Shown here: positions 1,201-62,283 of the stretch, piece by piece
How the letters are laid out: each line of letters starts with the position of its first letter
How positions within the stretch are numbered: position 1 is the stretch's first letter
Source of the DNA: Vicinamibacterales bacterium
Lineage (GTDB): Bacteria; Acidobacteriota; Vicinamibacteria; Vicinamibacterales; JAMQPK01
DNA: 64,000 nucleotides
Direction: 5' to 3'
Assembly: GCA_963850725.1 (NCBI GenBank)
Contig: CAWKMQ010000018.1
Span: 191,128 to 255,127, forward strand
Translations under genes and position numbers: made by a program
The notes under the pieces: generated by a model
What the model saw: the letters and a program-made list of their open reading frames with translations, nothing else
What the model was told of the DNA's origin: nothing
Databases searched by the model: none

Positions 1201-1259
1201 GGTGGTTCGTTAGTCGTAAAGTTCGTAAAGTGTCGGGTTCGTCGGGTTCGTTGGGTTCG
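1201..1259. repeat. Word array, core GTTCG/GGGTTCG (about 7 units of 9-10 bp)
   Basis: Sequence ggtggttcgt/tagtcgtaaa/gttcgtaaa/gtgtcgggttc/gtcgggttc/gttgggttc lies directly after the stop at 1195-1197. It is the reverse-complement word of the CGAACCC array at 59166..59317. Confidence 0.7.
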
Positions 1260-1310: not shown

Positions 1311-2924
1311 ATGAAAATCGGCAGACGTCAGATCGGGGTTCTCGTCGTCGTCGCGCTGTTGCTGGCGGCTCATCCTGCCGGTCAGTCGCCGACGCCACAG
1401 CACGCATGGCTCACGATCCTGTCGACGACGGATCTGCACGGCAACATCCTGCCGATCGACTACTACACGGGACAGCCGGACGCGCGCGGGCTGGCGAAGA
1501 TCGCGTCGCTCGTGCGGCAGATTCGCAAAGAGAATCCGTCGGGCACGCTGCTGCTGAACTCGGGCGACACCATACAGGGTGCGCCGCTCGCGTACGTCCA
1601 CAACACGCGCAACAACACGCCGCCCGATCCGATGATGCTCACGATGAGCGCCATCGGCGTCGACGCCATGGCCGTCGGCAATCACGAGTACAACTTCGGG
1701 TTGACGGTGCTCGAGAAGGCCCGGAAGGAAGCAGCCTTCCCGTGGCTGTCAGCGAATACCTACGACGTTGGCACCGGGCGCCCGCACTACGCGCCGTACA
1801 TCATGAAAGACCTGCAGGGCGTTCGCGTCGGCATCCTCGGCTTGACGACGCCCGGCGTTCCGTCCTGGGACGATCCGAAAAACTATGCCGGCCTCGAATT
1901 CCGGGAACCGCTGGCCGAGGCGAGGAAGTGGGTGCCGCATCTGAGGACGGAAGAGCGCGCCGACGTGGTCGTCATCGCCATGCACATGGGGCTCGAAGAG
2001 GATCTCCGAACGGGTGTTGTCTACCCGGGGCAGGTGCCGAATGAAAATCAGGCGCTGGCGATTGCCCGGCAGGTCGATGGCGTCGATCTCATCGTCATGG
2101 GCCATACGCATCGCGACGTCAGTGCGCTCGTCGTCAACGGCACGCTGATGACCCAGGCGAACGCCTGGGGGCGGCATCTGGCCCGGGCCGACATCCATCT
2201 CCAGCGAGACGCCAACCAGCGCTGGCGGGTCGCGACGAGGCAGGCCAATACGATTCCGGTGACCGACAGCACGCCGGCCGATCCCGAGATCGTCAAGCTG
2301 GCCGAGCCGTACGATCGCGAGACGCGGGCTTTCTTGAGCCGCGTGATCGGCCAGTCGGACGCCGAGCTCAGCCTCAACGACTTCCGCGATCGCGACACGG
2401 CCATCCTCGATCTCGTGCATCGCGTGCAGCTCGATGCCGGCAAGGCCGACGTCTCGATGGTGGCGCCCTTCAACGAGCAGGCGCGGGTTCCGAAAGGCGA
2501 CGTGCGCGTCCGCGACATCGCGGGCCTTTACGTGTACGACAACACGCTGGTGGTGCTCGATGTGTCCGGCCAGCAGTTGAAAGACGCGCTCGAGCATTCC
2601 GCGCGTTTCTTCGACGGCGGCATCCCCGCGTTCAACTACGACCAGGCCGAGGGGGTGACCTACGAGCTCGATAGCCGCAAGGCGGCCGGAGAACGGATCC
2701 AGAACCTGCGCTTCCAGGGCAAGCCGCTCGGTCCCACTCAGCGCCTCCGGCTGGCCACGAACAACTACCGCGTCAACGGGGGCGGCGGCTACGTGATGTA
2801 CCGCGGGGCCCCCGAGGTGTACCGATCGTCAAAGGAAATCCGGGAGCTGATTGTCGAATGGGTCGAACAGCACAAGGAGATCCCCTCACAGCCGACGAAC
2901 AACTGGCGAACAGTCTCACGCTGA
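1311..2924 (+). CDS. Bifunctional metallophosphatase / 5'-nucleotidase (UshA/CpdB-like), exported
   Basis: Intact 537-aa ORF with a signal peptide. Metallophosphoesterase motifs DLHG, GDTIQG, GNHEYNFG and GHTH are followed by a 5'-nucleotidase-type C-terminal domain. Confidence 0.9.
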   Translation: MKIGRRQIGVLVVVALLLAAHPAGQSPTPQHAWLTILSTTDLHGNILPIDYYTGQPDARGLAKIASLVRQIRKENPSGTLLLNSGDTIQGAPLAYVHNTRNNTPPDPMMLTMSAIGVDAMAVGNHEYNFGLTVLEKARKEAAFPWLSANTYDVGTGRPHYAPYIMKDLQGVRVGILGLTTPGVPSWDDPKNYAGLEFREPLAEARKWVPHLRTEERADVVVIAMHMGLEEDLRTGVVYPGQVPNENQALAIARQVDGVDLIVMGHTHRDVSALVVNGTLMTQANAWGRHLARADIHLQRDANQRWRVATRQANTIPVTDSTPADPEIVKLAEPYDRETRAFLSRVIGQSDAELSLNDFRDRDTAILDLVHRVQLDAGKADVSMVAPFNEQARVPKGDVRVRDIAGLYVYDNTLVVLDVSGQQLKDALEHSARFFDGGIPAFNYDQAEGVTYELDSRKAAGERIQNLRFQGKPLGPTQRLRLATNNYRVNGGGGYVMYRGAPEVYRSSKEIRELIVEWVEQHKEIPSQPTNNWRTVSR

Positions 2925-2934
2925 CGATCCACAC

Positions 2935-3035
2935 ACAGAAGGTCAGAAGATCAGGATCAAAGAGTCAAAGAGTCGTAGAGTCGCCCAGGTCGCCAGAGTC
3001 TTGGAGTCCTGACGAGTCCTGGAGTCCGACGAGTC
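2935..3035. repeat. Word arrays: AGAAGATCAG word, then a GAGTC array
   Basis: cagaaggtcagaagatcaggatcaaagag is followed by nine 8-10 bp units ending in GAGTC/AGGTC. There are 8 exact GAGTC in about 74 bp (2962..3035). It starts 11 nt after the stop at 2924. Confidence 0.8.
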
Positions 3036-3065
3036 AAGTGCTTTCAGAAGATGTACGCGTCGCAA

Positions 3066-3244
3066 CAGCAACAGTTGGGTTGGCGTTGCTGCGGCGCGAA
3101 GCCGTGCGCAGGCGGCCGATGTCTGACGCCTGACCGCGCGAGAAGCCTCAGGGAACCGAGCGAGGATGAATGGCGGAAGTCGGTGTTCGCTCGGCCCCGA
3201 AGCTTCGGATTCGCGCGGCAGCGACGCCAACCCAAGTGTTGCTG
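3066..3244. repeat. Long imperfect inverted repeat (39-nt arms) enclosing 101 nt with two internal hairpins; MITE-like element or structured RNA candidate
   Basis: Arm 3066-3104 pairs with 3206-3244: 35 Watson-Crick pairs, 1 G-U and 3 mismatches by hand pairing. Internal stems are 3109-3114/3127-3132 and 3156-3163/3187-3194. It lies between convergent genes. Confidence 0.6.
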
Positions 3245-3267
3245 GCGGAAATCGAACGATCGCGCCG

Positions 3268-4369
3268 CTATCTTTTGATCTTCTGATCTTCTGTAAGAGG
3301 GCCAAGCGTCGCGACGTACAGATCGAAATCATTACGCTCGTCCGTTGGACCGGTGGGATGGCGCGAGGAGAACGCGATCACCGAGCCGGTGGCGTCGATC
3401 GACGGACCGACGCTGGGCTCGATCCATGCCCCGTCGGGATCGCCGCTGACGCGCACCATCGTGCCGTCCTGCCGATCGTAGACGAACACATCCCACAGCA
3501 GATTGAAGTCCTCGCCCGCCACCAGATCGCTGGCTTCCGATTGAAAGACGACGAATCGGCCATTGGAGGAGATGGCAGGGTTGGCGCTCGCACCATTGGC
3601 CAGTCCACGTCTCACGCTTTTCGTAATGATCCGGACGGCGCCCGTGTGAAGGTCGGCGACATGGATGTGCGAAAGCCCGCCACCATCCGGGCCGACAAAC
3701 GCCAGCGCGCCCGCGTCGCCGCTGATCGACGGCGCCCAGCCGATGCCGATGCGTCGTGTGGTGCCCAGGAGCATATCGCGCACCAACACCTGTGAACTGG
3801 GACGGCGACGCGCGTCGAAGGGCGGTCTCGCCGAAAACGCGACGTACCGTCCGTCTGCGCTCGGACTCGGGCTGAAGCTCCACGTCAACGCTGTGTCGAC
3901 GCCCGGGCCCATCGATGATGCTGACGCGATGGGGGACACCGCCGCGCGGATCGATCGAAAAAATATCGTGCTCCGACGTAAAAAACACGACGCCGTTTCC
4001 GGCGACGGACGGCTGCCGTCCTTTGCCAAGGGTCCGATCGACATTGTCGACCGTGTCGCGCCACAGGATCGTGCCGTCGGCCTGAAAGACAAGGTAGCGG
4101 CCGTCTGCGCTGATGTCAGGATCCTGGCAGTCGATTGGTCCGCACGCCGGGCTCTCGAAGGTGACCTTCTGCCGAGCGCGATCGAGCACGTAGACATCAA
4201 TGGTGTGGTCGGTGTCGGCATCGGCAAGCGGCGCATGCGTGAGAAACGCGACGTAACGGCCGTCCGCGCTGACCGAAGCCGACGGGCGATCGAGCCCTGC
4301 CCGGTTGGCATCTTTCTGATCGATGGTGAGCATCCCGCTCATGATCAGCGCGGCGACCTGTGCCTTCAT
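3268..4369 (-). pseudogene. TolB-like / PD40 (WD40-like) beta-propeller repeat protein, one frame change as assembled
   Basis: The N-terminal ~155 codons are in track ORF 3332..4369 and the rest in ORF 3268..4311. The join is near 3900 at a GGGCCCGGG run. Repeated motifs SADGRYVAF, SADGRYLVF, SSNGRFVVF and ATGSVIAF are present. Confidence 0.75.
3271..3293. repeat. Word array, reverse complement of the AGAAGATCAG word
   Basis: tcttttgatcttctgatcttctg is inverted relative to 2935-2960. It encodes the last codons (..EDQKIKR) of the minus-strand gene ending at 3268. Confidence 0.7.
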
Positions 4370-9644: not shown

Positions 9645-9708
9645 ACTCGCAGATTAGGAGATTGGTCAGATTGAGACTACTCGATTCTGTAGATTGTCAG
9701 GAGGGCAT

Positions 9709-11883: not shown

Positions 11884-11893
11884 GGCGGATTGA

Positions 11894-11958
11894 ACAGGAG
11901 ACTAGGAGATCAGGAGAATCTTTTCGAAAAGAATTCTCTGAGTCTCCTGATCTCTTGT
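11894..11958. repeat. Word-array hairpin (GGAGAYYAGG word), possible terminator
   Basis: acaggagactaggagatcaggagaatcttttc | gaaaagaattctctgagtctcctgatctcttgt. The central palindrome tcttttcgaaaaga is perfect. About 33 positions pair with a few mismatches. It sits 11 nt after the stop at 11883. The same word occurs at 62205..62333. Confidence 0.7.
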
Positions 11959-13008: not shown

Positions 13009-13979
13009 CCGGTGGTCTTCTTGCGTTGCTCATTCTCACGTTCCTCGTGCTCGTCATCATCGCGAAGACGGCGATCGTCGTGCCGCAGCAGAGCGCGTAC
13101 GTCGTCGAGCGGCTGGGACGTTTCACGGCGATTCTCAACGCCGGCTTCCACGTGCTGCTGCCGTTCGTCGACGTGATCCGCTACCGCCATTCGCTGAAGG
13201 AAATCGCCGTCGACATCCCGGCGCAGGTCTGCATCACGCGCGACAACGTGCAGGTCGGCGTCGACGGGGTCCTCTACCTGAAGGTGCTGAACCCGGAGCG
13301 CGCGTCATACGGCATCTCGGACTACATGTTCGCGATCAGCCAGCTCGCGCAGACGACGCTGCGCAGCGAGGTCGGCAAGATCGACCTCGACCGCACGTTC
13401 GAGGAGCGCACGAACATCAACACGCAGGTGGTCAGCGAGCTCGACAAGGCATCCGAAGCGTGGGGCGTGAAAGTGCTTCGCTACGAAATCAAGAACATCA
13501 CGCCGCCGGCGGATATCCTCGCGGCGATGGAGAAGCAGATGCGCGCCGAGCGGGAGAAGCGCGCGGTGATTCTCACCTCCGAAGGCACGCGCGACGCGGC
13601 GATCAATACGGCGGAGGGCGTGAAGCAGGAAGTGATCAAGCAGTCGGAGGCCCGCAGGCTGCAGCAGATTAACGAGGCCGAAGGGCAGGCCGCGGCGATT
13701 ACGTCTGTCGCCACCGCGACGGCCGCGGGCATCCGCAGCGTGGCCGAGGCGATCAGGCTTCCCGGAGGTCAGGAAGCCGTGCAGCTTCGTGTGGCCGAGC
13801 AGTACATCGGCCAGTTCGGCGAGATTGCCAAAAAGGGCAACACCATCGTGCTGCCGGCGAACGTCGCGGACGTCGGATCGATGATCGCGCTCGCCATGAA
13901 AATGACGGGACGGAGTCCGGAGAGTCCTAGAGTCCTAAGAGTCGGCTGGGAGTCGGGAGAGTCTGAGAGTCAGAGATGA
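13005..13979 (+). CDS. SPFH/Band 7 (stomatin-like) protein
   Basis: Intact 324-aa ORF with an N-terminal TM helix. SPFH core VVPQQSAYVVERLGRF...LRYEIKNITPP, then a coiled-coil A/E/Q-rich region. The last ~20 codons (..SPESPRVLRVGWESGESESQR) are encoded by the GAGTC array. Confidence 0.9.
   Translation: MTGGLLALLILTFLVLVIIAKTAIVVPQQSAYVVERLGRFTAILNAGFHVLLPFVDVIRYRHSLKEIAVDIPAQVCITRDNVQVGVDGVLYLKVLNPERASYGISDYMFAISQLAQTTLRSEVGKIDLDRTFEERTNINTQVVSELDKASEAWGVKVLRYEIKNITPPADILAAMEKQMRAEREKRAVILTSEGTRDAAINTAEGVKQEVIKQSEARRLQQINEAEGQAAAITSVATATAAGIRSVAEAIRLPGGQEAVQLRVAEQYIGQFGEIAKKGNTIVLPANVADVGSMIALAMKMTGRSPESPRVLRVGWESGESESQR
13912..13971. repeat. GAGTC word array (7 exact GAGTC in about 60 bp)
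   Basis: cggagtc/cggagagtc/ctagagtc/ctaagagtc/ggctgggagtc/gggagagtc/tgagagtc. It lies inside the 3' end of the SPFH ORF and abuts the ATG of the M28 gene (13976). Confidence 0.85.
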
Positions 13980-17932: not shown

Positions 17933-17971
17933 ATTGGCAGATTCGCAGATTGGCAGATTGGGAGATTACGG
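17933..17971. repeat. Word array, core CAGATT(G/C)
   Basis: attggcagattcgcagattggcagattgggagattacgg fills the 46-nt spacer between the stop at 17932 and the start at 17979. The same word occurs at 58973..59045. Confidence 0.75.
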
Positions 17972-18926: not shown

Positions 18927-18988
18927 CGCACGAAGACACGGAACCACGAAGGCACGAAGAGACGCACACGAACGAGCACGAAGGTCGA
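18927..18988. repeat. Word array, core CACGAAG (5 units of 9-13 bp)
   Basis: cgcacgaagacacggaaccacgaaggcacgaagagacgcacacgaacgagcacgaaggtcgag starts directly after the stop at 18924-18926. Confidence 0.7.
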
Positions 18989-19035
18989 GAACTCAGCGTC
19001 TTTGCGAGCTCTCGTCGCTGGTGGCAGGTGTTCAT

Positions 19036-20951
19036 ATGAACGTTCGAACCATGCTTCCGCTCGCCCTGGCGATTGCGGTTCGATAGCCGTGACACCGCAC
19101 ATCACCACGCTCCGCGGCCAGAGCGGGCCCAGGCTCTACACGACCTGGAGCCAGCCGGGCGGCAGCATCGAAGGGGCGCAGTACTCCGCGCTCAAGCAGA
19201 TCGACAAGACGAACGTTCATCAGCTCGAGCTGCAATGGTTCTTTCCCGCGCCTGGTCCCATCGGCCGGTTCGCCTTCAGCCCGCTCGTCGTCGACAACGT
19301 GATGTACGTCGTCGGCAAGGACAATGCGGTCTTCGCCCTCGATGCCGTGACGGGGAAGGAAATCTGGCGGTTCGATACCGAAGGGACGCCGACCAACCGC
19401 GGCTTCAACTACTGGGAAAACACCGATCGTTCCGATCGCCGCCTCATCTTCGCGTCGCGCAGCTACCTTCAGGAGATCGATGCGCGAACCGGGAAGCCGA
19501 TCGCGAGCTTTGGCGCCAACGGCCTCGTGAACCTGCGCGAGGGCCTCGGCCGCACCCCGCTGCCCACGGGTGGCGCGCAATCGGGATCGCCCGGTCAGGT
19601 CTGGGGCAATCTGCTCGTGCTCGGTTCGGCTCCCGGAGAGGGCTACAACTCACCGCCCGGCGACATCCGGGCGTTCGACGTGCAGACCGGCAAGCTGGTG
19701 TGGACGTTCCACACGATTCCCCGGCCCGGCGAGTTCGGCTACGACACGTGGCCGCCCGACGCGTGGAAGACGGCCGGCGGCGCCAACACCTGGGCCGAGT
19801 TCGCGATCGACGAGAAACGCGGCATCGGGTATTTCCCAACGGGATCGCCGACGTTCGATCTGTGGGGCGGCGATCGAAAAGGCAACAACCTCTTCGGCAA
19901 CACGCTCCTCGCCCTCGATCTGCGCACGGGCAAGCGTCTCTGGCACTATCAAGCGCTTCATCACGATCTGTGGGACTACGATCTGGTGACCGGACCGAAG
20001 CTGCTGACGGTGAAGCTGAACGGGAAGCCGGTGGACATCGTCGCGCAGGCGACGAAGTACGGCTTGCTGTTCGTGTTCGATCGCGTCACCGGCAAGCCGA
20101 TCTGGCCCATCGAAGAACGGCCCGTCCCGCAGAGCGACGTGCCCGGCGAGCAGTCGTCGCCGACCCAGCCCTTTCCGACCCGACCCGCGCCGTTCGCACG
20201 GCTGAAGTTCACCGAGGCGGATGTGAACCCGTACCTCGACGCCGACGAGCGTCAGCGGATTCTCGAGATCGTGCGCACGTCGCGCAATGAAGGGATCTTC
20301 ACGCCGCTCAGCATCACGCGGCGTCAGATTTCAGTGCCCGGCGAGCTCGGCGGCGCCAACTGGGGCGGGGCTGCCGCGGATCCCGAAACCGGGATGCTGT
20401 ACGTGCGCTCGGCCGATCAGCCCGCCCTGCACGAGCCGATGACGCTCGTGGAAGACAGCGAAGCCGTCAGCCGGATGGCGCCGCAGCCACGCTACACGGG
20501 GCGTCTCGGATCGATGTTCTTCGCGTCGAACGGCCTGAACGCGATGAGCCCGCCCTGGGCGCAGATTACCGCGTACGATTTGAACAGCGGCGCGATCAAG
20601 TGGCAGGCGCCGTTCGGCGTCGTGCCGTCGCTCGCCGCGAAAGGCATCACGAACACCGGGAACAACTATCGCGCGCACAGGAACGGACCTGTCGTCACGG
20701 CGGGCGGATTGATTTTCATCGCGCACTTCGCCGATCGCACCGTTCGCGCCTACGACAAAGACAACGGGAAAATTCTCTGGGAGAAGAAGATGCCCCCCAA
20801 CTTCGCGGGCATCCCCTCCGTGTATGAGGTCAACGGACGGCAGTTCGTCGCCTTCTACGGCAGCAGCTTCGAGAGCCCGGCCGACGGCAACATCGCATGG
20901 GAAGGCGGGGAGCCCGGGTCGCAAGGGTATTACGTGTTTGCACTGGCGTAG
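19036..20951 (+). pseudogene. PQQ-dependent dehydrogenase (glucose/quinate/shikimate-type 8-bladed propeller), soluble periplasmic; one indel after the signal peptide
   Basis: The body is intact in track ORF 19002..20951 (..YSALKQIDKTNVHQLELQWFF..VVDNVMYVVGKDNAVFALDAVTGKEIWRF..). The signal peptide MNVRTMLPLALAIAV starts at ATG 19036 in frame 1, and the join is near 19080. Confidence 0.85.
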
Positions 20952-21062
20952 AAAGTAGAAAGTAGAAAAGTAGAAAGTGAAAAGTAGGAAAGTAAGCGAA
21001 GCAGGCGCCCGATGACTTTCAAACTTCCTTTTTACTTTTCCCTTTTCACTTTCTACTTTCTC
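20949..21062. repeat. Word-array hairpin (GTAGAAAG word) spanning the stop of one gene and the start of the next
   Basis: The 5' arm is tagaaagtagaaagtagaaaagtagaaagtgaaaagtaggaaagtaag. The loop contains ATG 21012. The 3' arm acttcctttttacttttcccttttcactttctactttctc includes a 17-nt exact complement of the 5' arm. The same word occurs at 55497..55613. Confidence 0.8.
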
Positions 21063-22257
21063 TGCGCTCCTGCCGCCAGCGCGCAATCCACCGACTGGCC
21101 CCAGTTCCGCGGTCCGGACGGGCAGGGGCACTCGACGGAAACCAACCTGCCGCTCGAGTGGAGCGAGACGAAGAACGTCGCCTGGAAGACCGCCATCCGC
21201 GGCCGCGGATGGTCGTCGCCGGTCGTGGCCGACGGCCGTGTCTGGGTGACGACGTCTGTCGAGCAGGCGCGCAGTGCGTCGCTGCGCGCGCTGGCGTTCG
21301 ATGTCGAAAGCGGCCGCGAGATCGTCAACGTCGAGGTGTTCCGGCTGTCGAATGCCACGCTGAAGAATCCCAAGAACAGCAACGCGTCTCCCACTCCGAT
21401 CGTCGAAGGCAACCGCGTCTACCTCCACTTCGGCGCCGATGGCACCGCGGCGATCGATGCCGCGACGGGAGCGGTCGTCTGGAAGGCGCAGTTTCCCTAT
21501 GAGTCGCAGCATGGCGCCGGCGGGTCGCCGGCGCTGTACAAGGATTTGCTGATTTTCAGCGGCGACGGTCACTACGAAGCCTGGGTCGTCGCGCTCGACA
21601 AGAACACCGGCAAGGTGCGGTGGAAAACAGAGCGCCGGAAGCCCTTCGCCCAGGCCTATACGACGCCGCTGGTGATTTCCGTCGGCGGGCGCGATCAGGT
21701 CGTCAGCGTCGGCGCGTTCCGGGCGGAGGCCTACAATCCCGAGACCGGCAAGGAAATCTGGTACGTGCGCTACGAGGACGGATTTTCGAATGTGCCCACG
21801 GCCGGTGTTCGGGCACGGCCTCGTGTACATCACGACCGGATTTTTCGAGCCCGCGGTCCTGGCGGTCCGGGCCGATGGAACGGGCGACGTCACGTCGACG
21901 CACAAGGCCTGGTCGATCTCGCGCGGTGCCCCCTTCACACCCTCGCCCATTCTCGTCGGCGACGAGCTGTACATCGTCAGCGATCTCGGCATCCTCTCGT
22001 GCGTCGATGCGAAGACGGGCAAGGTGCTCTGGCAGCAACGGCTGGGGGGCAATCATTCGGCGTCACCGATTTTCGCCGACGGCCGTCTTTACTTTCTCAG
22101 TGAAGAGGGCGTGGCCACGGTGATTGCGCCGGGAAAGACGTTCCAGAAGCTTGCCGTCAACGAGCTCGACGGCGCCACGCTCGCCTCGATGGCCGTCGCG
22201 CGCGGCTCCTTCTTCATCCGCAGCCTCACGCATCTCTACAGAATCACAGCGGGATAA
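21012..22257 (+). pseudogene. PQQ-like (BamB-like) beta-propeller repeat protein, exported; one frame change
   Basis: ORF 21012.. (frame 3: ..STDWPQFRGPDGQGHS..VAWKTAIRGRGWSSPVVADGRVWV..) joins ORF 21790..22257 (frame 1: ..PVFGHGLVYITTGF..DAKTGKVLWQQRLGG..) near 21790. Confidence 0.8.
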
Positions 22258-25566: not shown

Positions 25567-26081
25567 TCGAGCGGCACTACCTCGACGATTGCCTTGTCCA
25601 GCTGCGCAAGCTCAAGACGCAGGTGGACAAGGCCATCGCGCAGATCGACGATCGGCAGTTCTTCGCCGCGCTCGACCCCGAGGCCAACAGCATCGCGCTC
25701 CTGATGAAGCACATCTCGGGCAATATCCGTTCGCGCTCGACCGACTTCCTGACGACCGACGGCGAAAAGCCCAATCGGAATCGAGACGGCGAATTCGAGC
25801 TCGGCGGCGAGGACACGCGCGCGGCCATCCAGTCGCGATGGGAGGAGAGCTGGCGGCTGTTGTTCGAGACGATTGGCTCGCTTCAGCCCGGGGATCTCGA
25901 GAAGACCGTCACGATTCGGGGAGAAGCCCACACGGTCGTGCAGGCGTTGAACCGCCAGGTGTCGCACTATTCAGCCCACGTCGGCCAGATCGTGCTGCTC
26001 GCCAAGCACTTCGCGGGGGCGCGCTGGCAGACGCTGAGCATACCGCGGAGGAAAGCACCGGTTCAGGGTTCCGGGTGCTAG
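25563..26081 (+). CDS. DUF1572 / DinB-like family protein
   Basis: TTG start overlaps the ferritin stop. Sequence ..LMKHISGNIRSRSTDFLTTDGEKPNRNRDGEF..VSHYSAHVGQIVLLAKHF. The last codons (..VQGSGC) run into the GGTTCYRG word array. Confidence 0.6.
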   Translation: MIERHYLDDCLVQLRKLKTQVDKAIAQIDDRQFFAALDPEANSIALLMKHISGNIRSRSTDFLTTDGEKPNRNRDGEFELGGEDTRAAIQSRWEESWRLLFETIGSLQPGDLEKTVTIRGEAHTVVQALNRQVSHYSAHVGQIVLLAKHFAGARWQTLSIPRRKAPVQGSGC

Positions 26082-26236
26082 GTTCTAGGTTCCGGTTCTG
26101 AACCTGCTAGCCTGGGCAGATTCACGTATCTGGTTCAGGCGGACCGCGTGAACGTCCGGCTAAAGCCGGACACTACGTATCCACGGCACCGAACCTGGAA
26201 CCGGAACCCAGAACCTAGCACCCAGAACCCAGAACC
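26061..26236. repeat. Word-array long hairpin (GGTTCYRG word) with a REP element in its loop
   Basis: Segment 26066-26098 is complementary to 26198-26230 (33 nt, 2 mismatches by hand alignment). The 99-nt loop carries the REP copy at 26124..26179. The hairpin fills the gap between the convergent stops at 26081 and 26240. Confidence 0.8.
26124..26179. repeat. REP-like element, doublet with a degenerate first hairpin
   Basis: acgtatctggttcaggcggaccgcgtgaacgtccggctaaagccggacactacgta aligns to the reverse complement of the doublet at 45971..46030. The track ORF 26148.. (MNVRLKPDTTY..) is its translation artefact. Confidence 0.8.
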
Positions 26237-26239
26237 GCT

Positions 26240-26909
26240 CTATCCTTCCACGCCTCGCATCCGGCTGAGGTGCATCTCCAGCTCTTTCAGCCGTTGCTGC
26301 TCCTCCTTCAGCCGCGCGATCTCGGCCTTGCGCATGCGGTCGAATCCACCATCGAGAATGAACTGCACCACCTGATGCAGCTCGCCGCGATCGAGGAACG
26401 TGCCGTGGCCGCCGCACGTGTCGACGATCGCGCCCGAGAGGCGGCCGAAATTCTGGCGGTTCATCATCTTGCCGCACTGCGGGACAGGGCCGGTACCGGA
26501 TCCGATCGGCCGGCGACGGCACGTGAGCGGTGGCCTTGCGCGGTTCGACGCTCTTCTGCGCCATGATCGCCTGCTGCTCGCGTTGCGCGCACAGGCGGTC
26601 GAAGCTGGCGGCCTCGATCCATGTGCCGTCGCAGCTCGCGCACTCGAGCAGATCGACGTCGCCCACGCGGATCCAGTGCATGTCCCCCCGGCACGCCGGG
26701 CATTTGGTCGAGTGTGGCTGGGTCTCTTCGGATCGGCTGCGTGCCGAGCCGCACGACGGACAGAACGCCGCCCCCTGGAAGAGCAGGTTCAGGCACACCG
26801 GGCACCCGATGGCCGCGAGACGCGACTGGCAGTACGCGCACCGGCCGGCGTCGGGCGCGGCCGGCGCGCCGCAGCTCGGACACCGGAGGGTCGCCACACT
26901 GGTCTGCAC
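26240..26909 (-). pseudogene. Multi-zinc-ribbon protein with two zf-TFIIB-type domains (YdjG-like), one frame change
   Basis: ORF 26160..26909 has CPSCG..CAYC, CPVC..CPSCG and CPACRGDMHWIRVGDVDLLECASCDGTWIE. It joins ORF 26240..26467 (..MMNRQNFGRLSGAIVDTCGGHGTFLDRGELHQVV.. plus a coiled-coil tail) near 26470. Confidence 0.7.
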
Positions 26910-27967: not shown

Positions 27968-28354
27968 TCATTTTCGGGTTCGCTTCTTGGCGATTCCGTC
28001 GAGATGCGCTTTCCGAATCTCCGTCTTTCGATCTTTCTCCTTATTTCTACATGCGCGACAGAGGACTGCTCGTGTGTTGATGTTTCCCTTGGCGACTTCG
28101 TACCACCATTTTTGCCTGTCAGCGGGCCAAACCTCTTCTTTACCGCAAGCACGACAGGTGATCGCTTTGTCTACGTAGAACCGTGGCAGAGGATCGTACG
28201 TATTGTTGTGGGCCAGTTGCGCAGGGTCGGCAGGAACCGCTCCACGCGGCAGTACGGCATCTGAATCACGAGTATCGATATGCCCCAGTTCTTTTGCTCG
28301 CTTCAGGGCGGCGTCTTTCTGACGTTCTTGTTTTCTCTTTTTGGACGCCATCAA
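27968..28354 (-). CDS. Basic zinc-ribbon protein (CxxC...CxxC), low-GC islet gene 2
   Basis: Intact 128-aa ORF. Motif YVDKAITCRACGKEEVWPADRQKWWYEVAKGNINTRAVLCRACR with K/R-rich termini. The local G+C is clearly below the flanks. Confidence 0.6.
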   Translation of the reverse strand: MMASKKRKQERQKDAALKRAKELGHIDTRDSDAVLPRGAVPADPAQLAHNNTYDPLPRFYVDKAITCRACGKEEVWPADRQKWWYEVAKGNINTRAVLCRACRNKEKDRKTEIRKAHLDGIAKKRTRK

Positions 28355-28761
28355 CCGTTGTAAAAATAAACCACCATCATGTTGGTTTTCTTGTTGATTC
28401 CTACCGCCCTATAGGAGTCGGAGTTCCCGCTATATCCCTCACTCAACTCGTCCTCCGCAAATCGGCAATACGTTTTTCCTCCGGTGGCCACACCATGAAA
28501 AGCGTTTAAATTTGAAACCAGATTCCATTTTGCAACCAGTCTTCTCTTCAGCTCATCATCTACCGGTGAAATTTCCCAGCACCGCCACGGATCGTTTCCC
28601 CAATTCCCGTCCATCTTGACAATCTCCACGTTGGAGGGAAGTGGTATTCGCATGAATGTTTCAAAGTCTGATGATGGTGAGTTACATCCAGTCAGTAACG
28701 AAGATCCTGATAGGAACAAAAGAAGTATCCGTGATAATCCAAGCCCAGAGCGCATGCTCAC
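28351..28761 (-). CDS. Lipoprotein of unknown function, low-GC islet gene 1
   Basis: Intact 136-aa ORF with lipobox LLTGC after a signal peptide. Its stop overlaps the start of the downstream zinc-ribbon gene (ATGA at 28351-28354). Confidence 0.6.
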   Translation of the reverse strand: MSMRSGLGLSRILLLFLSGSSLLTGCNSPSSDFETFMRIPLPSNVEIVKMDGNWGNDPWRCWEISPVDDELKRRLVAKWNLVSNLNAFHGVATGGKTYCRFAEDELSEGYSGNSDSYRAVGINKKTNMMVVYFYNG

Positions 28762-28851
28762 CTCGCCTTGTGTGGGCCATTCTGCGCGCGCGCTCCGTGC
28801 CTAATCAAGCGGCTAAATCCGCCTCATTCTGTCGTAAGCTAGCCGTCTCAT

Positions 28852-30402
28852 ATGTCGCGCATTCTTCTCGGCAAGGGCGACGAGCCCGTCTATCTCCAGG
28901 CACAATACGGTAACCGTCACGGCCTGATTGCCGGTGCCACCGGCACCGGGAAGACCGTCTCGCTGATGGTCATGGCCGAGGGGTTTTCGCGCCTCGGCGT
29001 GCCGGTGTTCATGCCCGACATCAAGGGCGACGTCGCGGGACTCGCCATGCCGGGCAAGGGCGGCGACAAGATTCAACAGCGAGCCACGCAGGTCGGCGTC
29101 GAAGCCTACGCCCCCGAGGCGAATCCGGTCGTGTTGTGGGATCTGTACGGGACTTCCGGGCATCCGGTCCGGACGACCGTCAGCGAGCTGGGGCCGACGT
29201 TGCTCGGCCGGATTCTGGAACTGAGCCCGGCACAGGTCGGCGCGCTCGAGATTGCGTTCAAGCTGGCGGACGACCGCGGATTGCTGTTGCTCGATCTCGA
29301 CGATCTGCGTGCGCTGCTCACCTTCGTTGCTGACAACCGCAAAGAGATCTCCTCGAGCTACGGACTCGTGAGCACCCAATCGGTGGCCGCCATCCAGCGG
29401 TCGCTGCTGTCGCTCGAGCGCGAGGGGGCGACGTCGCTCTTCGGCGAGCCGGCGCTGGAGCTGGTCGATCTGTTTCGCACCGATCTGAGCGGCCGCGGCA
29501 TCATCAATGTCCTCGCCGCCGATCAGCTGATCCTCAAGCCGCGCCTGTTCTCGAGCTTCCTGCTGTGGCTGCTGTCGGAGCTGTTCGAGAATCTTCCCGA
29601 AGTCGGCGATCTCGAGAAGCCCAAGCTGGTGTTCATCTTCGACGAGGCGCACCTGCTCTTCGACGACGCGCCCGAAGCGCTGCGCGATCGCGTGGAGCAG
29701 GTGGTGCGCATCATCCGATCGAAGGGCGTCGGCGTGTATTTCTGCTCGCAGTTTCCCGACGATGTGCCCGACGAAATTCTCGGACAGCTGGGCAACCGCG
29801 TGCAGCACGCGCTGCGGGCGTTCACGCCGCGCGACCAGAAGGCGGTGCGCACGGCGGCCGAGACATTCGTGCCGAATCCGAAGCTGGACGTGGCCCAGGT
29901 GATTTCCACGCTTGGTGTGGGCGAGGCGCTCGTGTCGACGCTGCAGGACAACGGCGTGCCGATGCCGGTGCAGCGCACGATGATGGCGCCGCCGCGAAGC
30001 CGCATCGGGGCGATTACCGCCGAAGAGCGCGCGACGGTGCGCGCGCGCAGTCCCATCGGGCCGAAGTACGACAAGGCGGTCAACCGTGAGTCGGCCTATG
30101 AGATGCTGAAAGCCGGAATGGGTGCGTCAGGTGCGGGAGGCCTGTCGCGCCGAAGCTCGTCGGAACCGGATCGAGCGAAGCCGGATTCGACAGGTGCGGG
30201 AGGTGCGTCAGGTGCGGGGGGTGCGACAGCTACGTCGGGTGTGGGCGGGGCGATAAACGATTTTCTCTGGGGCACCAAGCGGCGTCAGGGGATGGTGGAG
30301 ACGATGGCGAAGCAGACTGCGCGCACAGTGGGCGGCCAACTGGGCAGGCAGATCCTTCGCGGCATGTTCGGTGGCATTCTCGGGGGACGACAGTCGCGCT
30401 GA
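28852..30402 (+). CDS. HerA-like P-loop ATPase, DUF853 (YjgR-like) family
   Basis: Intact 516-aa ORF. Walker A GATGTGKT and Walker B-like LVFIFDEAHLLF. Gly-rich C-terminal tail ..GAGGASGAGGATATSGVGG..ILGGRQSR. The antisense ORF 28813..29808 is a shadow. Confidence 0.8.
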   Translation: MSRILLGKGDEPVYLQAQYGNRHGLIAGATGTGKTVSLMVMAEGFSRLGVPVFMPDIKGDVAGLAMPGKGGDKIQQRATQVGVEAYAPEANPVVLWDLYGTSGHPVRTTVSELGPTLLGRILELSPAQVGALEIAFKLADDRGLLLLDLDDLRALLTFVADNRKEISSSYGLVSTQSVAAIQRSLLSLEREGATSLFGEPALELVDLFRTDLSGRGIINVLAADQLILKPRLFSSFLLWLLSELFENLPEVGDLEKPKLVFIFDEAHLLFDDAPEALRDRVEQVVRIIRSKGVGVYFCSQFPDDVPDEILGQLGNRVQHALRAFTPRDQKAVRTAAETFVPNPKLDVAQVISTLGVGEALVSTLQDNGVPMPVQRTMMAPPRSRIGAITAEERATVRARSPIGPKYDKAVNRESAYEMLKAGMGASGAGGLSRRSSSEPDRAKPDSTGAGGASGAGGATATSGVGGAINDFLWGTKRRQGMVETMAKQTARTVGGQLGRQILRGMFGGILGGRQSR

Positions 30403-55100: not shown

Positions 55101-55496
55101 ATGCGAACGGTCATTGTCGTCATCGCCGTCCTCGTGGTGCTGGGTGCGCTTGGCGGCGGGTTCTATCTCATCGGGCCTCCCGCGGAGGAACGCGCGCGGC
55201 AATTCGACGCCCGGCGGGAAGCCGACCTGCAGCGGCTGCGTCTGGCGGCCGATCTGTACTGGACCCGCAACCGGCGTCTGCCCGCGTCGCTCGACGAGCT
55301 TCACAAGGAAGCCGGCACGAACATCTTTGCCCGCGATCCGCAGTCCGGCGCGGCGTACGGCTACGCGGTGAAAGCCGGCGACGCGTACGAGCTGTGCGCC
55401 GAATTCGCCCGCGCATCCGAGCTGCGCGGTGACTTCTGGTCGCATGGAGAGGGAAGGCAGTGTTTTCAGATAACGGCAAAGGTGCTGACACCGTAA
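55101..55496 (+). CDS. Membrane-anchored hypothetical protein
   Basis: Intact 131-aa ORF with an N-terminal TM helix (VIVVIAVLVVLGALGGGFYLI). The segment LPASLDEL..RDPQSGAAYGYAV..YELCAEF loosely resembles pseudopilin-type globular domains (weak). Confidence 0.45.
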   Translation: MRTVIVVIAVLVVLGALGGGFYLIGPPAEERARQFDARREADLQRLRLAADLYWTRNRRLPASLDELHKEAGTNIFARDPQSGAAYGYAVKAGDAYELCAEFARASELRGDFWSHGEGRQCFQITAKVLTP

Positions 55497-55613
55497 GTAA
55501 AAAGTAGAAAGTAGAAAGTAAGGAATAAGGAAGCTAATGTTGATGCGACTGAGGTTGCCGTCTCGCTATTCCTTTTTACTTTTCACTTTTCACTTTCCAC
55601 TTTTTCCTTTCCA
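55497..55613. repeat. Word-array hairpin (GTAGAAAG word) spanning a stop, the next start codon and a signal-peptide region
   Basis: The 5' arm is gtaaaaagtagaaagtagaaagtaaggaataaggaag. The loop contains ATG 55537. The 3' arm is tcctttttacttttcacttttcactttccactttttcctttccac. The architecture matches 20949..21062. Confidence 0.8.
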
Positions 55614-57188
55614 CTGTTCCTCCTCCGCCCAGCCCCCATTCTCCGTCGTCGAAGCCACCATTGCGGACATGCAGGCCGCGATGCAGCAGAAACGCATTAC
55701 CTCGCGCGGCATCGTCCAGCAGTACCTCGACCGCATCGCGAAGTACGAGGATCGCCTGAACGCCATCATCACGCTCAATCCCCGCGCGCTCGAAGAGGCC
55801 GACCGGCTCGATCGAGAGCGGGCGCAGGGCCGGATCCGCGGCCCGCTGCACGGCATTCCGATCGCGCTCAAGGACAACATTCACACGACCGACATGCCCA
55901 CGACCGGCGGCGCGCTCGCGTTCAAGGGGTTCGTGCCGCCGTACGAGGCCACGCTGACGAAGCAGCTTCGCGAGGCGGGCGCGATCATCATCGCGAAGAC
56001 GAACATGACCGAGCTGGCCAACTGGATTGCCGCCGGCATGCCGGGCAACTACAACGGCCTTGCCGGCTACGGCTTCAATCCCTACGATCCACGGCCCGAT
56101 CCGCGCGAGGGGACCAGACGACGGCAGGCCCGCGCTGACGGCCGGCCGGATCGAGCTCGGGCGCCGGCACGGCGGCCAATCTGTGGGCGGCGAATGTCGG
56201 CACCGAAACGTCCGGATCGATTCTCTCGCCCGCCAAACCAGACGATGATTGTGGGGATCAAGCCGACGGTGGGGCGGATCAGCCGGTACGGAATCATCCC
56301 GATTACCGCGGATCAGGACACCGCCGGGCCGATGGCGCGAACGGTGGCGGATGCGGCGATGCTGCTTCGGCGTGCTCGAAGGTGCGACGCCGGACCCGAA
56401 CGATGCGGCGACGCGGACGTGTCCACGAACGCCCAACGGTGACTACACGCGTCATCTGAACGCACGCGGACTGGAGGGCGCCCGTATCGGCATTCCGCGC
56501 GCGACGTTCGTCGATGAGGCCAGGCAAGGCGACGTCGTGCGCGAGGCCATCGCCATTCTCCGAAAGGCCGGGGCGGTCGATCGTCGATCCGGCCGACCTG
56601 CCCGAGCAACCGCCGCCGGTCTGCCGCGACGATACGGGCATCAGGGGCAAGGACGTCAATTGCTCGATCGTGTTCAAGTACGGCATGAAGCGCGACTTCA
56701 ACGCCTGGCTGGCCACGCTGGGTGCCGGCGCTCCGGTGAAAACGCTCGCGCAGCTGCGCGAGTGGAACCTCGCCCATCGCGCCGAAGGCGCCATCAAGTA
56801 CGGCCAGATCCAGCTCGACAACTCGGATGCGGTGGATCTCGAGGCCGATCGCGCGCGCTATCTTGCCGATCGGCAGAAGGATGTGCGCGTGACCGGCACG
56901 GATGGCATCGACGCGGTCTTCAAGCGCGAGCGGCTCGACGCGCTGCTGTTTGTCGGTTCGAGCGGATCGGCGTTTGCCGCCAAGCCCGGCTATCCGACCG
57001 TGATTGTGCCGTTCGCCTTCGTGCCGAACGCCCCCACGCCGCCGTTCCCGCCGGGCTTCGATGCCAAGCCGTCACCGCTCGGCATCAGTTTTACGGGTAC
57101 CGCGTGCAGCGAGCCGCGCTTGATCGAACTGGCCTATGCGTTCGAGCAGGCCACGAAGCGAAGAGTGGCGCCGGCAGAGTTTCCCTAG
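55537..57188 (+). pseudogene. Amidase (amidase-signature family), exported; at least 4 frame changes
   Basis: Sequence ..ATIADMQAAMQQKRITSRGIVQQYLDRIAKYE..LHGIPIALKDNIHT.. The signature GGSSSGAGTAANLWAANVGTETSGSILSPA is readable only in a third frame near 56150-56240. The C-terminal part is in ORF 56514..57188. Confidence 0.8.
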
Positions 57189-58971: not shown

Positions 58972-58972
58972 A

Positions 58973-59045: not shown

Positions 59046-59059
59046 GAGTGCTGTTCTTA

Positions 59060-62268: not shown

Positions 62269-62283
62269 TCCGTTTAAACAAAA

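What the first reader, a model, noticed from the sequence alone, without database searches (positions are those of the whole stretch)
20949..21062. Conserved architecture: stop codon - repeat arm - loop with start codon - repeat arm that encodes a signal-peptide core (locus 1)
The GTAGAAAG array begins at the PQQ-dehydrogenase stop (20949-20951). ATG 21012 of the next gene lies in the loop. The T-rich 3' arm is translated as FKLPFYFSLFTFYFL, followed by CAPAASA|Q, a plausible Sec signal peptide. The same arrangement occurs at 55497-55613 with the word read in a different frame. A T-rich arm gives F/L/S/P-rich peptides in any frame, so the repeat may have been exapted as a signal-peptide h-region. 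Alternatively the hairpin could gate translation initiation of exported enzymes.
Basis: partly seen in the sequence, partly recalled or inferred. Interest (0 to 1): 0.65.

Follow-up and report, generated by a model that had tools for sequence, protein, structure and literature searches.

The report
Hairpin repeat arm encodes signal peptide
Between two pairs of neighbouring genes in a soil acidobacterium, a hairpin made of short tandem DNA words ends the upstream gene in its first arm, carries the next gene's start codon in its loop, and uses its second arm to encode the greasy core of that protein's export signal; relatives keep this layout even when the repeated word is swapped.

Summary
At 20948-21063 a purine-rich GTAGAAA(G) array starts at the TAG of a PQQ dehydrogenase. 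ATG 21012 lies in the loop. The complementary T-rich array is codons 5-17 of a BamB-like beta-propeller protein. The RNA hairpin is -54.5 kcal/mol (z -6.9). Locus 2 (55495-55619, amidase) has the same layout but a weaker hairpin (z -2.1).

The T-rich arm is the signal-peptide h-region. Orthologues without repeats carry ordinary signal peptides at the same position, and no other start codon exists.

The layout is present in 15 of 16 syntenic junctions, with three different words: GTAGAAA, ACGAAAA and GGAAAAA. Both arms always change together, including CG->GC compensatory changes at three stem pairs. Strains ~99% identical in the flanks carry completely different junction cassettes.

Purine arms have stops in all three frames. 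Pyrimidine arms have none, and give F/L/S/T/Y peptides in every frame.

What the hairpin does is not shown. Translational occlusion or coupling is inferred. The same word elsewhere is mostly a non-coding intergenic hairpin, so this is not a general rule for exported proteins. I found no description of the arrangement in the literature I searched. The closest precedent is the opa CTCTT leader repeats.

The parts
19002..20951 (+). Upstream gene of locus 1: PQQ-dependent dehydrogenase. Its last codons and TAG stop (20949-20951) sit at the start of the 5' arm.
   Evidence: ORF; Pfam PF01011, E 1.5e-174; syntenic in L001, L002, L123, L126, L127.
20948..20994 (+). Locus 1, 5' arm: purine-rich tandem array GTAGAAA(G), about 6 units. 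It has stop codons in all three frames.
20995..21022 (+). Locus 1, apical loop region. It contains ATG 21012-21014, the only possible start, and codons for the n-region MTFK.
21023..21063 (+). Locus 1, 3' arm: pyrimidine-rich complementary array with no stop in any frame. It is translated as LPFYFSLFTFYFL, the h-region.
   Evidence: orthologue N-termini.
21012..21083 (+). Predicted Sec signal peptide of the BamB-like protein: MTFKLPFYFSLFTFYFLCAPAASA, with inferred cleavage ASA|Q.
   Evidence: Positional equivalence with ordinary signal peptides of repeat-free orthologues; best 11-residue window has mean Kyte-Doolittle hydropathy 1.85.
21084..22257 (+). Mature BamB-like PQQ_2 beta-propeller protein. 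One frameshift near 21790 in this assembly.
55101..55496 (+). Upstream gene of locus 2: 131-aa protein with no Pfam hit. Stop TAA at 55494-55496, at the start of the 5' arm.
   Evidence: syntenic in L129 and L211.
55495..55528 (+). Locus 2, 5' arm: AAGTAAAAAGTAGAAAGTAGAAAGTAAGGAATAA.
55529..55568 (+). Locus 2, loop with ATG 55537 and ATG 55543 and the n-region MLMRLRLPSR.
55569..55619 (+). Locus 2, 3' arm: T-rich array of about 7 units, translated as SFLLFTFHFPLFPFH, the h-region.
55537..55629 (+). Predicted signal peptide of the amidase: MLMRLRLPSRYSFLLFTFHFPLFPFHCSSSA, followed by |QPPFSVVEAT.
   Evidence: Amidase orthologues have ordinary signal peptides ending just before (Q)PPFSVVEATI.
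55630..57188 (+). Mature amidase (PF01425), broken by frameshifts in this assembly.

Best explanation
Each locus is a structure-maintained hairpin between two cistrons, built from short tandem words. It has been absorbed into the ends of both flanking genes.

Shown:
- The purine-rich 5' arm carries stop codons in all three frames and terminates the upstream ORF.
- The loop, or in some relatives the end of the 5' arm, supplies the start codon and the positively charged n-region.
- The pyrimidine-rich 3' arm is stop-free in every frame. It translates to an F/L/S/T/Y heptad whatever the frame, and it encodes the hydrophobic core of a cleavable Sec signal peptide.
- Only the c-region and cleavage site (A-x-A|Q) lie outside the repeat.

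Inferred origin:
- Such hairpins are a common intergenic feature of these genomes.
- Where the 3' arm intrudes into a gene, it survives only if that gene encodes an exported protein. The h-region is the one protein segment that needs only hydrophobicity.
- Because A-rich codons (Lys/Arg/Glu) are complementary to U-rich codons (Phe/Leu/Ser), a purine-then-pyrimidine hairpin is intrinsically shaped like a signal peptide: a charged stretch followed by a hydrophobic one.

Inferred function, not shown:
- In the polycistronic mRNA the long stem sequesters the initiation region and the first ~17 codons of the downstream gene.
- Translation of that gene would then be damped, or made dependent on unwinding by ribosomes that terminate inside the 5' arm (translational coupling). 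The stem may also act as a processing or stability element.
- Word turnover occurs by slippage together with arm-to-arm homogenisation, and by recombinational swapping of the whole junction.
For: Signal-peptide role:
- Orthologue N-termini: for the BamB-like protein, for the amidase.
- Repeat-free relatives have ordinary signal peptides in the same slot and tightly coupled or overlapping genes. L128 has a 26-nt overlap. L211 has an ATGA overlap.
- ATG 21012 is the only in-frame start.
- Residues at -3/-1 are A/A and S/A, and hydropathy is 1.8-1.85.

Structure maintained:
- MFE -54.5 kcal/mol, z -6.9.
- Syntenic orthologues give z from -2.4 to -7.7, whereas most distant repeat-free orthologues give z near 0.
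- There are three word families at the BamB-like junction and two at the amidase junction, and the arms are complementary in each.
- The L123 junction is homologous to the ACGAAAA family, yet it has C->G in the 5'-arm units and G->C in the 3'-arm units. This gives CG->GC changes at three pairs of the consensus stem.

Persistence: four-fold synonymous sites are only 49-61% identical among GTAGAAA-family loci, yet the non-coding 5' arm keeps the word.

Frame logic.

Stop codon inside the 5' arm, or start codon inside it: L001, L002, L132 and L140.
Against: - No expression, TSS, ribosome or proteomic data exist. The hairpin's effect on translation is pure inference.
- In the window the upstream stop lies at the very base of a ~45-bp stem, so a terminating ribosome would open only its first ~12-15 bp.
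- Shine-Dalgarno-like motifs are not consistently present or sequestered.
- The locus 2 hairpin is only marginally better than shuffles (z -2.1), and L129 keeps only one arm. The pairing can therefore decay without loss of the gene.
- Within a word family the arms pair as well across loci as within a locus. Covariation therefore rests on few independent events: two or three word switches.
- Arm complementarity could be kept by a templated mutational process rather than by selection.
Confidence: 0.6

Rival explanations
1. Neutral by-product. A local mutational habit of these genomes (replication slippage plus intrastrand template switching) fills loosely constrained DNA with palindromic tandem arrays. 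The hairpin has no function. It persists here only because intergenic DNA and signal-peptide h-regions tolerate almost any sequence of the right composition, and arm-to-arm templated repair keeps the arms complementary.
For: - Nearly every intergenic spacer of the window carries 7-9-nt arrays with a different word, some as hairpins and some one-armed.
- The same word forms non-coding intergenic hairpins in many phyla.
- Arms can decay (L129; locus 2 z -2.1).
- There is no locus-specific pairing within a word family.
- All units changed together in L123, as concerted evolution would produce.
Against: - The architecture is retained at one junction across lineages whose synonymous sites are saturated.
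- It is retained through word replacement.
- In compact GC-rich genomes a useless 50-nt AT-rich arm should be deleted, as in L128 and L211.
- A -54 kcal/mol stem across an initiation region is unlikely to be expression-neutral.
Confidence: 0.27
2. Phase-variable contingency locus of the Neisseria opa type. Gain or loss of 7-nt units in the leader-peptide coding repeat would shift the frame and switch the exported enzyme on and off.
For: - The repeat unit is not a multiple of 3 and lies inside the leader-peptide coding region.
- Copy number differs between orthologues (P0075, P0005, P0009 and P0004 against P0013).
- opa precedent: PMC3745409.
Against: - The units are heterogeneous. In the locus 1 3' arm every unit differs, and 7- and 8-nt units are mixed, which suppresses slippage.
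- All 15 repeat-bearing syntenic loci are in frame.
- Copy-number differences between orthologues are whole 7-aa (21-nt) steps.
- The proteins are housekeeping-type soil enzymes, not surface antigens.
- The truncated proteins in the 90% clusters that I could trace to a contig come from long, probably long-read, ENA/NCBI contigs, which are error-prone. They are uninformative.
Confidence: 0.05
3. Portable palindromic cassette. The hairpin is a mobile or recombining element, similar to a MITE or REP. It brings its own stop codons, start codon and proto-signal peptide, and it is exchanged between strains and perhaps between genes.
For: - Window versus L123/L133: the flanks are ~99% identical and 4-fold sites 92% identical, but a ~200-nt junction is unrelated.
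- Both N-terminal types coexist within clusters of at least 90% identity.
- The 12-nt pattern AATARTGTCACG matches at BamB-like junctions (L123, L124, L127) and at an amidase junction (L129). Read by eye from the sequences printed, the L127/L129 identity extends to about 22 nt (CGAAAAACGAATAATGTCACGC).
- Both window loci use the same word.
Against: - No transposase, target-site duplication or fixed element ends were seen.
- The words differ widely between intergenic sites of one genome.
- The strain-level swap is equally explained by ordinary homologous recombination with a diverged allele. Substitutions are also elevated ~35 nt into the upstream gene.
Confidence: 0.08

Closest known systems
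Neisseria opa genes: CTCTT pentamer 'coding repeat' in the leader-peptide region (PMC3745409)
   Same: A pyrimidine-rich short tandem repeat lies inside the signal/leader-peptide coding sequence. (That it encodes the hydrophobic part is from my own knowledge, not from the passage read.) The unit length is not a multiple of three.
   Different: opa has homogeneous 5-nt units that slip at high frequency to give phase variation. It has no complementary upstream arm, no hairpin and no start codon in a loop. Here the units are 7-8 nt and heterogeneous, all alleles seen are in frame, and the repeat is one arm of a conserved inverted repeat.
Heptamer direct repeats upstream of start codons: TAACTGA repeats of Beggiatoaceae, Cyanobacteria and Bacteroidetes (MacGregor 2015, PMC4679880) and cyanobacterial STRR heptamers (own knowledge)
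   Same: Tandem 7-nt words in intergenic DNA, typically ending a few nucleotides before a start codon. The window has many of these, including AAACTGA/GAAACTA arrays at 49002-49047 and 61515-61569.
   Different: Those are one genome-wide word in direct orientation and are non-coding. Here the word differs from site to site, an inverted copy follows, and that copy is translated.
REP/BIME-type extragenic palindromes and intercistronic stem-loops of operons (PMC3733652 was listed and only its abstract seen; functions are from own knowledge)
   Same: An imperfect palindrome between co-directional genes. It is expected to form an mRNA hairpin that can affect stability, processing or downstream translation.
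   Different: REPs are 20-40-bp copies of a genome-wide consensus with a GTAG/CGTC head, mobilised by RAYT transposases. They stay extragenic. Here the arms are tandem arrays, the words are site-specific, and both arms overlap coding sequence.
Rickettsia palindromic elements inserted in frame into protein genes (own knowledge; not checked in the library)
   Same: Palindromic repeat DNA that is translated as part of a functional protein.
   Different: RPEs are ~100-150-bp dispersed copies of a consensus inserted inside genes. They are not tandem words, do not lie at an operon junction and do not form a signal peptide.
Translational coupling or occlusion by secondary structure, e.g. RNA-phage coat/replicase and operon junction hairpins (own knowledge)
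   Same: The downstream start region lies within a hairpin, and the upstream ORF terminates in the 5' side of that hairpin.
   Different: Function is untested here. The stem is unusually long (~45 bp, AU-rich) and its 3' side is the signal-peptide coding sequence.

Membership tests
Sec-type (signal peptidase I) signal peptide | Short, positively charged n-region after the start codon | tested here: met
   MTFK (one Lys) at locus 1 and MLMRLRLPSR (three Arg) at locus 2. In relatives the n-region is KSR, NSK or SRRHAxxxR.
Sec-type (signal peptidase I) signal peptide | Hydrophobic h-region of about 7-15 residues | tested here: met
   LPFYFSLFTFYFL and FLLFTFHFPLFPF. The best 11-residue Kyte-Doolittle means are 1.85 and 1.81, against 2.3-2.6 for ordinary orthologue signal peptides. 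They are hydrophobic but at the low end.
Sec-type (signal peptidase I) signal peptide | c-region with small residues at -3 and -1 | tested here: met
   A-S-A|Q at locus 1 and S-S-A|Q at locus 2. A-x-A|Q recurs in most orthologues. No SignalP run was possible.
Sec-type (signal peptidase I) signal peptide | Occupies the same position as the signal peptide of homologues, directly before the conserved mature N-terminus | tested here: met
   It ends 2-6 residues before WPQFRG in all BamB-like orthologues, and before PPFSVVEATI in the amidases.
Sec-type (signal peptidase I) signal peptide | Actual export and cleavage | not testable with these tools
   Needs N-terminal proteomics or PhoA/Bla fusions.
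Phase-variable contingency locus (opa-type coding repeat) | Repeat unit not divisible by 3 inside the reading frame | tested here: met
   7- and 8-nt units lie in codons 5-17.
Phase-variable contingency locus (opa-type coding repeat) | Long run of identical units prone to slippage | tested here: not met
   TRF reports 75-83% matches in the 3' arms. No more than 2 identical adjacent units occur.
Phase-variable contingency locus (opa-type coding repeat) | Out-of-frame (OFF) alleles in populations | tested here: inconclusive
   All 15 repeat-bearing junctions are in frame. Truncated cluster members come largely from long, probably long-read, contigs that are error-prone. No read-level data were available.
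REP/BIME extragenic palindromes | Many copies of one 20-40-bp consensus palindrome per genome, with a GTAG or CGTC head | tested here: not met
   The arms are tandem arrays. Other hairpins in the window use unrelated words. Only 2 loci in 64 kb share this word. Each unit does contain GTAG. RAYT presence was not tested.
Intrinsic (Rho-independent) terminator | Short GC-rich stem followed by a U-tract | tested here: not met
   No terminator-like site in 20700-21300 or 55300-55800. The stem is long and AU-rich.
TAACTGA/STRR-type heptamer direct repeats | One genome-wide heptamer in direct tandem copies, intergenic, just upstream of starts | tested here: not met
   The period and the position of the 5' arm fit. 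However, the word is site-specific, and an inverted, translated copy follows.
Any curated RNA family (Rfam 15) | Match at the gathering threshold | tested here: not met
   No hit in the whole window.

The most novel reading that the evidence does not exclude
Purine-then-pyrimidine tandem-word hairpins may be a de novo source, and an exchangeable cassette, of signal peptides. Codon complementarity makes the first arm encode Lys/Arg-rich sequence with stops in all frames. It makes the second arm encode frame-proof Phe/Leu-rich sequence. One small palindrome can therefore terminate the upstream gene, restart translation and target the downstream protein for export. Selection then maintains the RNA hairpin, with compensatory changes in the arms, to set the translation level of the exported enzyme. 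Alternative cassettes (GTAGAAA 'MTFK...TFYF' versus ACGAAAA/GGAAAAA 'MSR...LFVFPFSFF') would be kept as old alleles that recombine among strains, and perhaps move between genes.
Probability: 0.2. Interest if true: 0.8.

Novelty: new variant of a known kind. Interest (0 to 1): 0.62.

Why it matters
- Origin and turnover of export signals. It would show a concrete route by which signal peptides arise and are replaced: non-coding repeat DNA at gene junctions is recruited as coding sequence because the h-region needs only hydrophobicity.
- Dual constraint. One 40-nt stretch must satisfy both an RNA pairing constraint and a protein constraint. It changes quickly (word switches, cassette swaps between ~99% identical strains) without losing either.
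- Annotation. Start-codon calling and signal-peptide prediction in Acidobacteriota MAGs will be error-prone at such T-rich, homopolymer-rich arms, especially in long-read assemblies.
- Engineering. If the hairpin tunes translation of exported enzymes, it is a compact and portable expression/export module.

Tried and rejected
1. Protein-database census with an idealised repeat peptide (the first attempt was too short). Only 18 tiny spurious ORFs passed, so no census of protein families was possible.
2. Rfam, whole window at gathering threshold, plus an E-value search of 2850-3400. Nothing found.
3. Sigma-70 promoter and intrinsic-terminator scans at both loci. Nothing found, so a simple terminator/promoter reading was rejected.
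4. Looking up the contig of P0121, the exact window amidase fragment. It is not on record, so the source genome could not be scanned.
5. Genome-contig scan for GTAGAAAGTAGAAAG. It was useful only for showing that same-word hairpins in Vicinamibacterales, Blastocatellales, Anaerolineales, Planctomycetota and others are mostly non-coding.
6. Own-arm versus foreign-arm duplex energies. These separate the word families but show no locus-specific pairing within a family, so I do not claim fine-scale covariation.
7. Search of about 300 kb of Acidobacteriota loci for other Phe-rich N-termini. Only the BamB-like and amidase genes were found, so the idea of a general rule for exported proteins was rejected.
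8. Wrong start codon or a second signal peptide downstream. Rejected.
9. Lipoprotein signal. The Cys after the arm is not preceded by a lipobox (F-Y-F-L-C).
10. RNA thermometer. The stem is far too stable at -54 kcal/mol.
Full report
**1. What is in the sequence**

The window has 64% G+C. At 20948-20994 there is an AT-rich, purine-rich tandem array with units GTAGAAA or GTAGAAAG, 6.4 copies. It begins one base before the TAG (20949-20951) that ends a 649-codon ORF. Pfam identifies that ORF as a PQQ-dependent dehydrogenase (PF01011, E 1.5e-174).

After a ~28-nt G+C-rich spacer containing ATG 21012, the reverse-complement array (CTTTTCA/CTTTCTA units) runs from 21023 to 21063. An 18-nt stretch of the two arms is perfectly complementary.

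As RNA, 20940-21075 folds into one long stem of -54.5 kcal/mol. The z-score is -6.9, and none of 200 dinucleotide shuffles folds as well.

The second locus has the same order of parts:
- TAA stop of a 131-aa ORF at 55494-55496;
- purine arm 55495-55528;
- ATG 55537 and ATG 55543 in the loop;
- pyrimidine arm 55569-55619.

Its arms are only 76% complementary, and the fold is marginal at -33.3 kcal/mol with z -2.1.

**2. Is the 3' arm translated?**

The downstream gene at locus 1 is a BamB-like PQQ_2 beta-propeller protein. It has one frameshift near 21790 in this assembly. ATG 21012 is the only ATG/GTG/TTG between the last in-frame stop and the conserved mature N-terminus WPQFRG.

A database search returned more than 100 orthologues at 73-97% identity. 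Their N-termini fall into three groups:
- M-T/P-S-K/R-LTFYFLLFTFYFL...A-x-A-Q, the same repeat-derived peptide with 2 to 4 seven-residue units;
- MSRRHAxxxRIALFVLPFSFFV...;
- ordinary Leu/Val/Ala signal peptides.

All of them end 2-6 residues before WPQFRG.

The amidase at locus 2 behaves the same way. Most orthologues have ordinary signal peptides ending just before (Q)PPFSVVEATI, and a few have Phe-rich ones.

Both window proteins show the expected tripartite shape. They have a basic n-region (MTFK; MLMRLRLPSR). The hydrophobic stretch has a mean Kyte-Doolittle value of about 1.8 over 11 residues, lower than the 2.3-2.6 of ordinary orthologue signal peptides. The -3/-1 residues are small (ASA|Q; SSA|Q).

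There is no room for a second signal peptide downstream. It has not been shown experimentally.

**3. Conservation of the architecture and change of the word**

I fetched the orthologous PQQ-dehydrogenase/BamB-like junction from eight assemblies by exact-protein look-up. A metagenome scan gave 80 more loci.

In 15 of the 16 loci where the PQQ dehydrogenase is still the upstream neighbour, the layout is the same:
- the upstream ORF (...GYYVF-A/S-L...) runs a few codons into a purine-rich array and stops there;
- a start codon follows in the loop, or in L002, L132 and L140 inside the end of the purine arm, so that the arm itself encodes the n-region (K-S-R, N-S-K);
- the complementary pyrimidine array is the h-region.

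The word is not constant. It is GTAGAAA in the window, L001, L002, L125, L126, L130, L132 and L140. It is ACGAAAA in L127, L134, L136, L137, L139 and L141. It is GGAAAAA in L123 and L133.

The sixteenth locus, L128, has no repeat, an ordinary signal peptide, and genes that overlap by 26 nt. More distant orthologues at 65-72% identity, with different neighbours, have ordinary signal peptides, and most show no excess structure, with z near 0. A few have unrelated upstream hairpins (L147, L161/L189, L170, L209; see section 8).

The amidase junction repeats the story:
- L210 has a two-armed ACGAAAA hairpin whose 3' arm encodes HYSIFVFRFSFLLLLFL;
- L129 (91% identical protein) has only the upstream array and an ordinary signal peptide;
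- L211 has no repeat and an ATGA stop/start overlap.

**4. Evidence that the pairing, not just the peptide, is kept**

Duplex energies between 5' and 3' arms separate the word families but do not distinguish loci within a family.

The L123 junction aligns with the ACGAAAA family through a shared loop (GAATA-A/G-TGTCACG). Its units, however, have G where the others have C in the 5' arm, and C where the others have G in the 3' arm. In the RNAalifold consensus stem of 24 pairs, this gives CG->GC double changes at three separate pairs, columns 44-139, 51-132 and 65-118. This is compensatory change spread over all units.

Four-fold synonymous sites between the window and the other GTAGAAA-family loci are only 49-61% identical, which is near saturation. 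Yet the non-coding 5' arm still carries the word.

These facts argue that arm complementarity is actively maintained. They do not say whether this is by selection on an RNA or DNA hairpin, or by templated homogenisation between arms.

**5. Cassette replacement between near-identical strains**

The window and L123/L133 are ~99% identical in DNA on both sides of the junction, and four-fold sites are 92% identical. A ~200-nt segment between them is unrelated. It covers the last dozen codons of the dehydrogenase, the hairpin and the entire signal peptide.

Consistently, single clusters of at least 90% identity contain both N-terminal types. In cluster P0001, ten members have MSRLHNRRPTSSLFLFPFSFF and five have MTFKLPFYFSLFTFYF. 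The same mix is seen in cluster P0039.

The simplest reading is homologous recombination that imports a diverged junction allele. A mobile-cassette reading is not excluded. The pattern AATARTGTCACG matches a BamB-like junction (L127) and an amidase junction (L129). Read by eye from the sequences printed, the identity between these two extends to about 22 nt (CGAAAAACGAATAATGTCACGC). Both window loci also use the same word.

**6. Why a hairpin arm can be a signal peptide**

The purine arms contain stop codons in all three frames, and the pyrimidine arms contain none.

A perfect heptamer array gives the same seven-residue cyclic peptide in every frame. CTTTCTA gives LSTFYFL, TTTTCGT gives FSFFVFR, and TTTTTCC gives FFLFPFS.

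The purine arms translate to Lys/Arg/Glu/Ser-rich strings. This follows from the complementarity of the genetic code: A at the second codon position is hydrophilic, and its complement U is hydrophobic. A purine-then-pyrimidine hairpin is thus a ready-made 'stop, then charged, then hydrophobic' module. This is an inference and general knowledge of the code.

An intrusion of the 3' arm into a reading frame should be tolerated only in exported proteins. That would explain why the two coding cases are a periplasmic-type propeller protein and a secreted amidase.

**7. How general is it?**

The window is full of 7-9-nt intergenic arrays with other words. Some are hairpins: 11892-11952, 26044-26252, 59060-59105, and 62206-62333 (two). 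Some are one-armed arrays ending just before a start codon: 9651-9700, 13913-13976, 17933-17967, 49002-49047 and 61515-61569.

A scan of one genome per species found the GTAGAAAGTAGAAAG word in many phyla. In G+C-rich genomes (Vicinamibacterales, Blastocatellales, Anaerolineales, Planctomycetota, Verrucomicrobiota) it typically forms intergenic hairpins. Among about 20 such sites from Acidobacteriota, none outside the two gene families overlaps a plausible signal peptide.

The coding use is therefore a recurrent special case of a widespread non-coding element, not a rule for exported proteins.

**8. What the hairpin does**

Nothing here measures function. There is no sigma-70-like promoter, no intrinsic terminator and no Rfam family.

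Repeat-free relatives have overlapping, presumably translationally coupled genes at both junctions. I therefore consider the most likely role to be post-transcriptional. The stem would sequester the initiation region and the first ~17 codons of the downstream gene. It would be partly opened by ribosomes terminating in the 5' arm, and it may also act as a processing or stability element.

Points against this reading:
- in the window the stop lies at the base of a ~45-bp stem, so termination would open little of it;
- Shine-Dalgarno-like motifs are inconsistent;
- one arm can be lost (L129).

The main rival is a neutral mutational by-product (slippage plus template switching) that survives where constraint is lax.

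Phase variation of the opa type (PMC3745409) is unlikely. The units are heterogeneous, and all 15 repeat-bearing junctions are in frame.

**9. Comparison with known systems and novelty**

The nearest precedent for a repeat-encoded leader peptide is the opa CTCTT coding repeat. The nearest for intergenic heptamer arrays next to start codons is the TAACTGA/STRR repeats (PMC4679880). For junction hairpins the nearest are REP/BIME elements and coupling hairpins, and for translated palindromes the Rickettsia RPEs (own knowledge).

None of these combines a tandem-word inverted repeat, a start codon in the loop and a signal-peptide-coding 3' arm. I found no description of this combination in four of the literature searches. 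I therefore rate it a new variant of known kinds.

The organism is most probably a member of the Vicinamibacterales. Cluster mates of the 97%-identical orthologue are so named, and the closest loci come from MFD Vicinamibacterales MAGs.

**10. Verdict**

The exaptation reading is supported by comparative evidence, and the gating reading is open. Interest is moderate to high: a dual-constraint element whose arms co-vary and whose junction cassettes are swapped between near-identical strains. It is limited by the absence of any functional data and by its rarity outside two gene families.

Noticed in passing
window 1214-1259, 2936-3035, 3270-3293, 9651-9700, 11892-11952, 13913-13976, 17933-17967, 18928-18990, 26044-26252, 49002-49047, 57199-57262, 58970-59110, 61515-61569, 62206-62333: Almost every intergenic spacer carries a 7-9-nt tandem array, each with its own word (GAGTCCT, CAGAAGAT, ATTGGCAG, CACGAAG, GGTTCCG, AAACTGA, GAAACTA and others). 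Some form hairpins. Others are one-armed and end just before a Shine-Dalgarno sequence and start codon, reminiscent of the TAACTGA/STRR repeats.
   Followed up: partly
window 59174-59317: About 16 copies of a 9-nt unit (CGACGAACC, 76% matches), directly upstream of the ORF that begins near 59335. This is the longest array in the window.
   Followed up: no
window 2936-3293: A ~230-nt G+C-rich segment has a 39-nt, 90% complementary long-range inverted repeat (3066-3104 / 3206-3244). It is bracketed by inverted tandem arrays (CAGAAGAT... / ...ATCTTCTG). No Rfam match even at E<=1. It could be an undescribed structured RNA or a composite palindromic element.
   Followed up: partly
window 45971-46030 and 26150-26190: REP-like palindromes share the core GTCCGGCT(A/T)AAGCCGGACACTACGTA, with GTAG at the head. 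One sits in the loop of the large GGTTCCG-array hairpin.
   Followed up: no
window ~21790 and ~56100-56500: Both downstream genes, the BamB-like protein and the amidase, are interrupted by frameshifts. Related long-read contigs show many truncated gene calls. These are probably homopolymer indel errors of a long-read MAG rather than pseudogenes. T-rich arms would be especially error-prone.
   Followed up: partly
window 27968-28761: A lower-GC islet (59% in the 28001-30000 profile window) holds two small minus-strand ORFs of 128 aa and 136 aa that differ in composition from their neighbours. It may be horizontally acquired. (The 128-aa product is Cys-rich and looks zinc-ribbon-like by eye; the 136-aa ORF follows it.)
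   Followed up: no
L123 5997-6008, L124 1487-1498, L127 2997-3008, L129 2997-3008: The loop motif AATA[AG]TGTCACG (start codon plus Ser-Arg) is shared by BamB-like junctions and by an amidase junction. By eye, L127 and L129 share about 22 identical nucleotides across the array end and start codon. This hints at cassette transfer or conversion between different genes.
   Followed up: partly
protein clusters of P0001 and P0039: Within single clusters of at least 90% identity, two unrelated N-terminal signal-peptide types coexist (MTFKLPFYFSLFTFYF... and MSR...LF(L/V)FPFS...). This is an old junction dimorphism shuffled by recombination.
   Followed up: partly
L161 and L189 (about 190-85 nt upstream of the WPQFRG codon); L147; L170: More distant orthologues with ordinary signal peptides have other strong hairpins just upstream. 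L161/L189 have a near-perfect ~50-bp palindrome (z about -12). L147 has AATTACGC-array arms. L170 has GGGGCTA-array arms. Junction hairpins are thus common upstream of this gene in several lineages.
   Followed up: no
L039, L043, L044, L048, L070, L081, L096 (MAG CAZBPH, labelled Heliobacteriaceae) and L057, L062, L086, L105, L112, L117, L119 (Blastocatellales MAG JBFWQI): Two unrelated MAGs each carry many perfect GTAGAAAG-array hairpins, with up to 7 units per arm. The same word has therefore expanded genome-wide in distant lineages.
   Followed up: no
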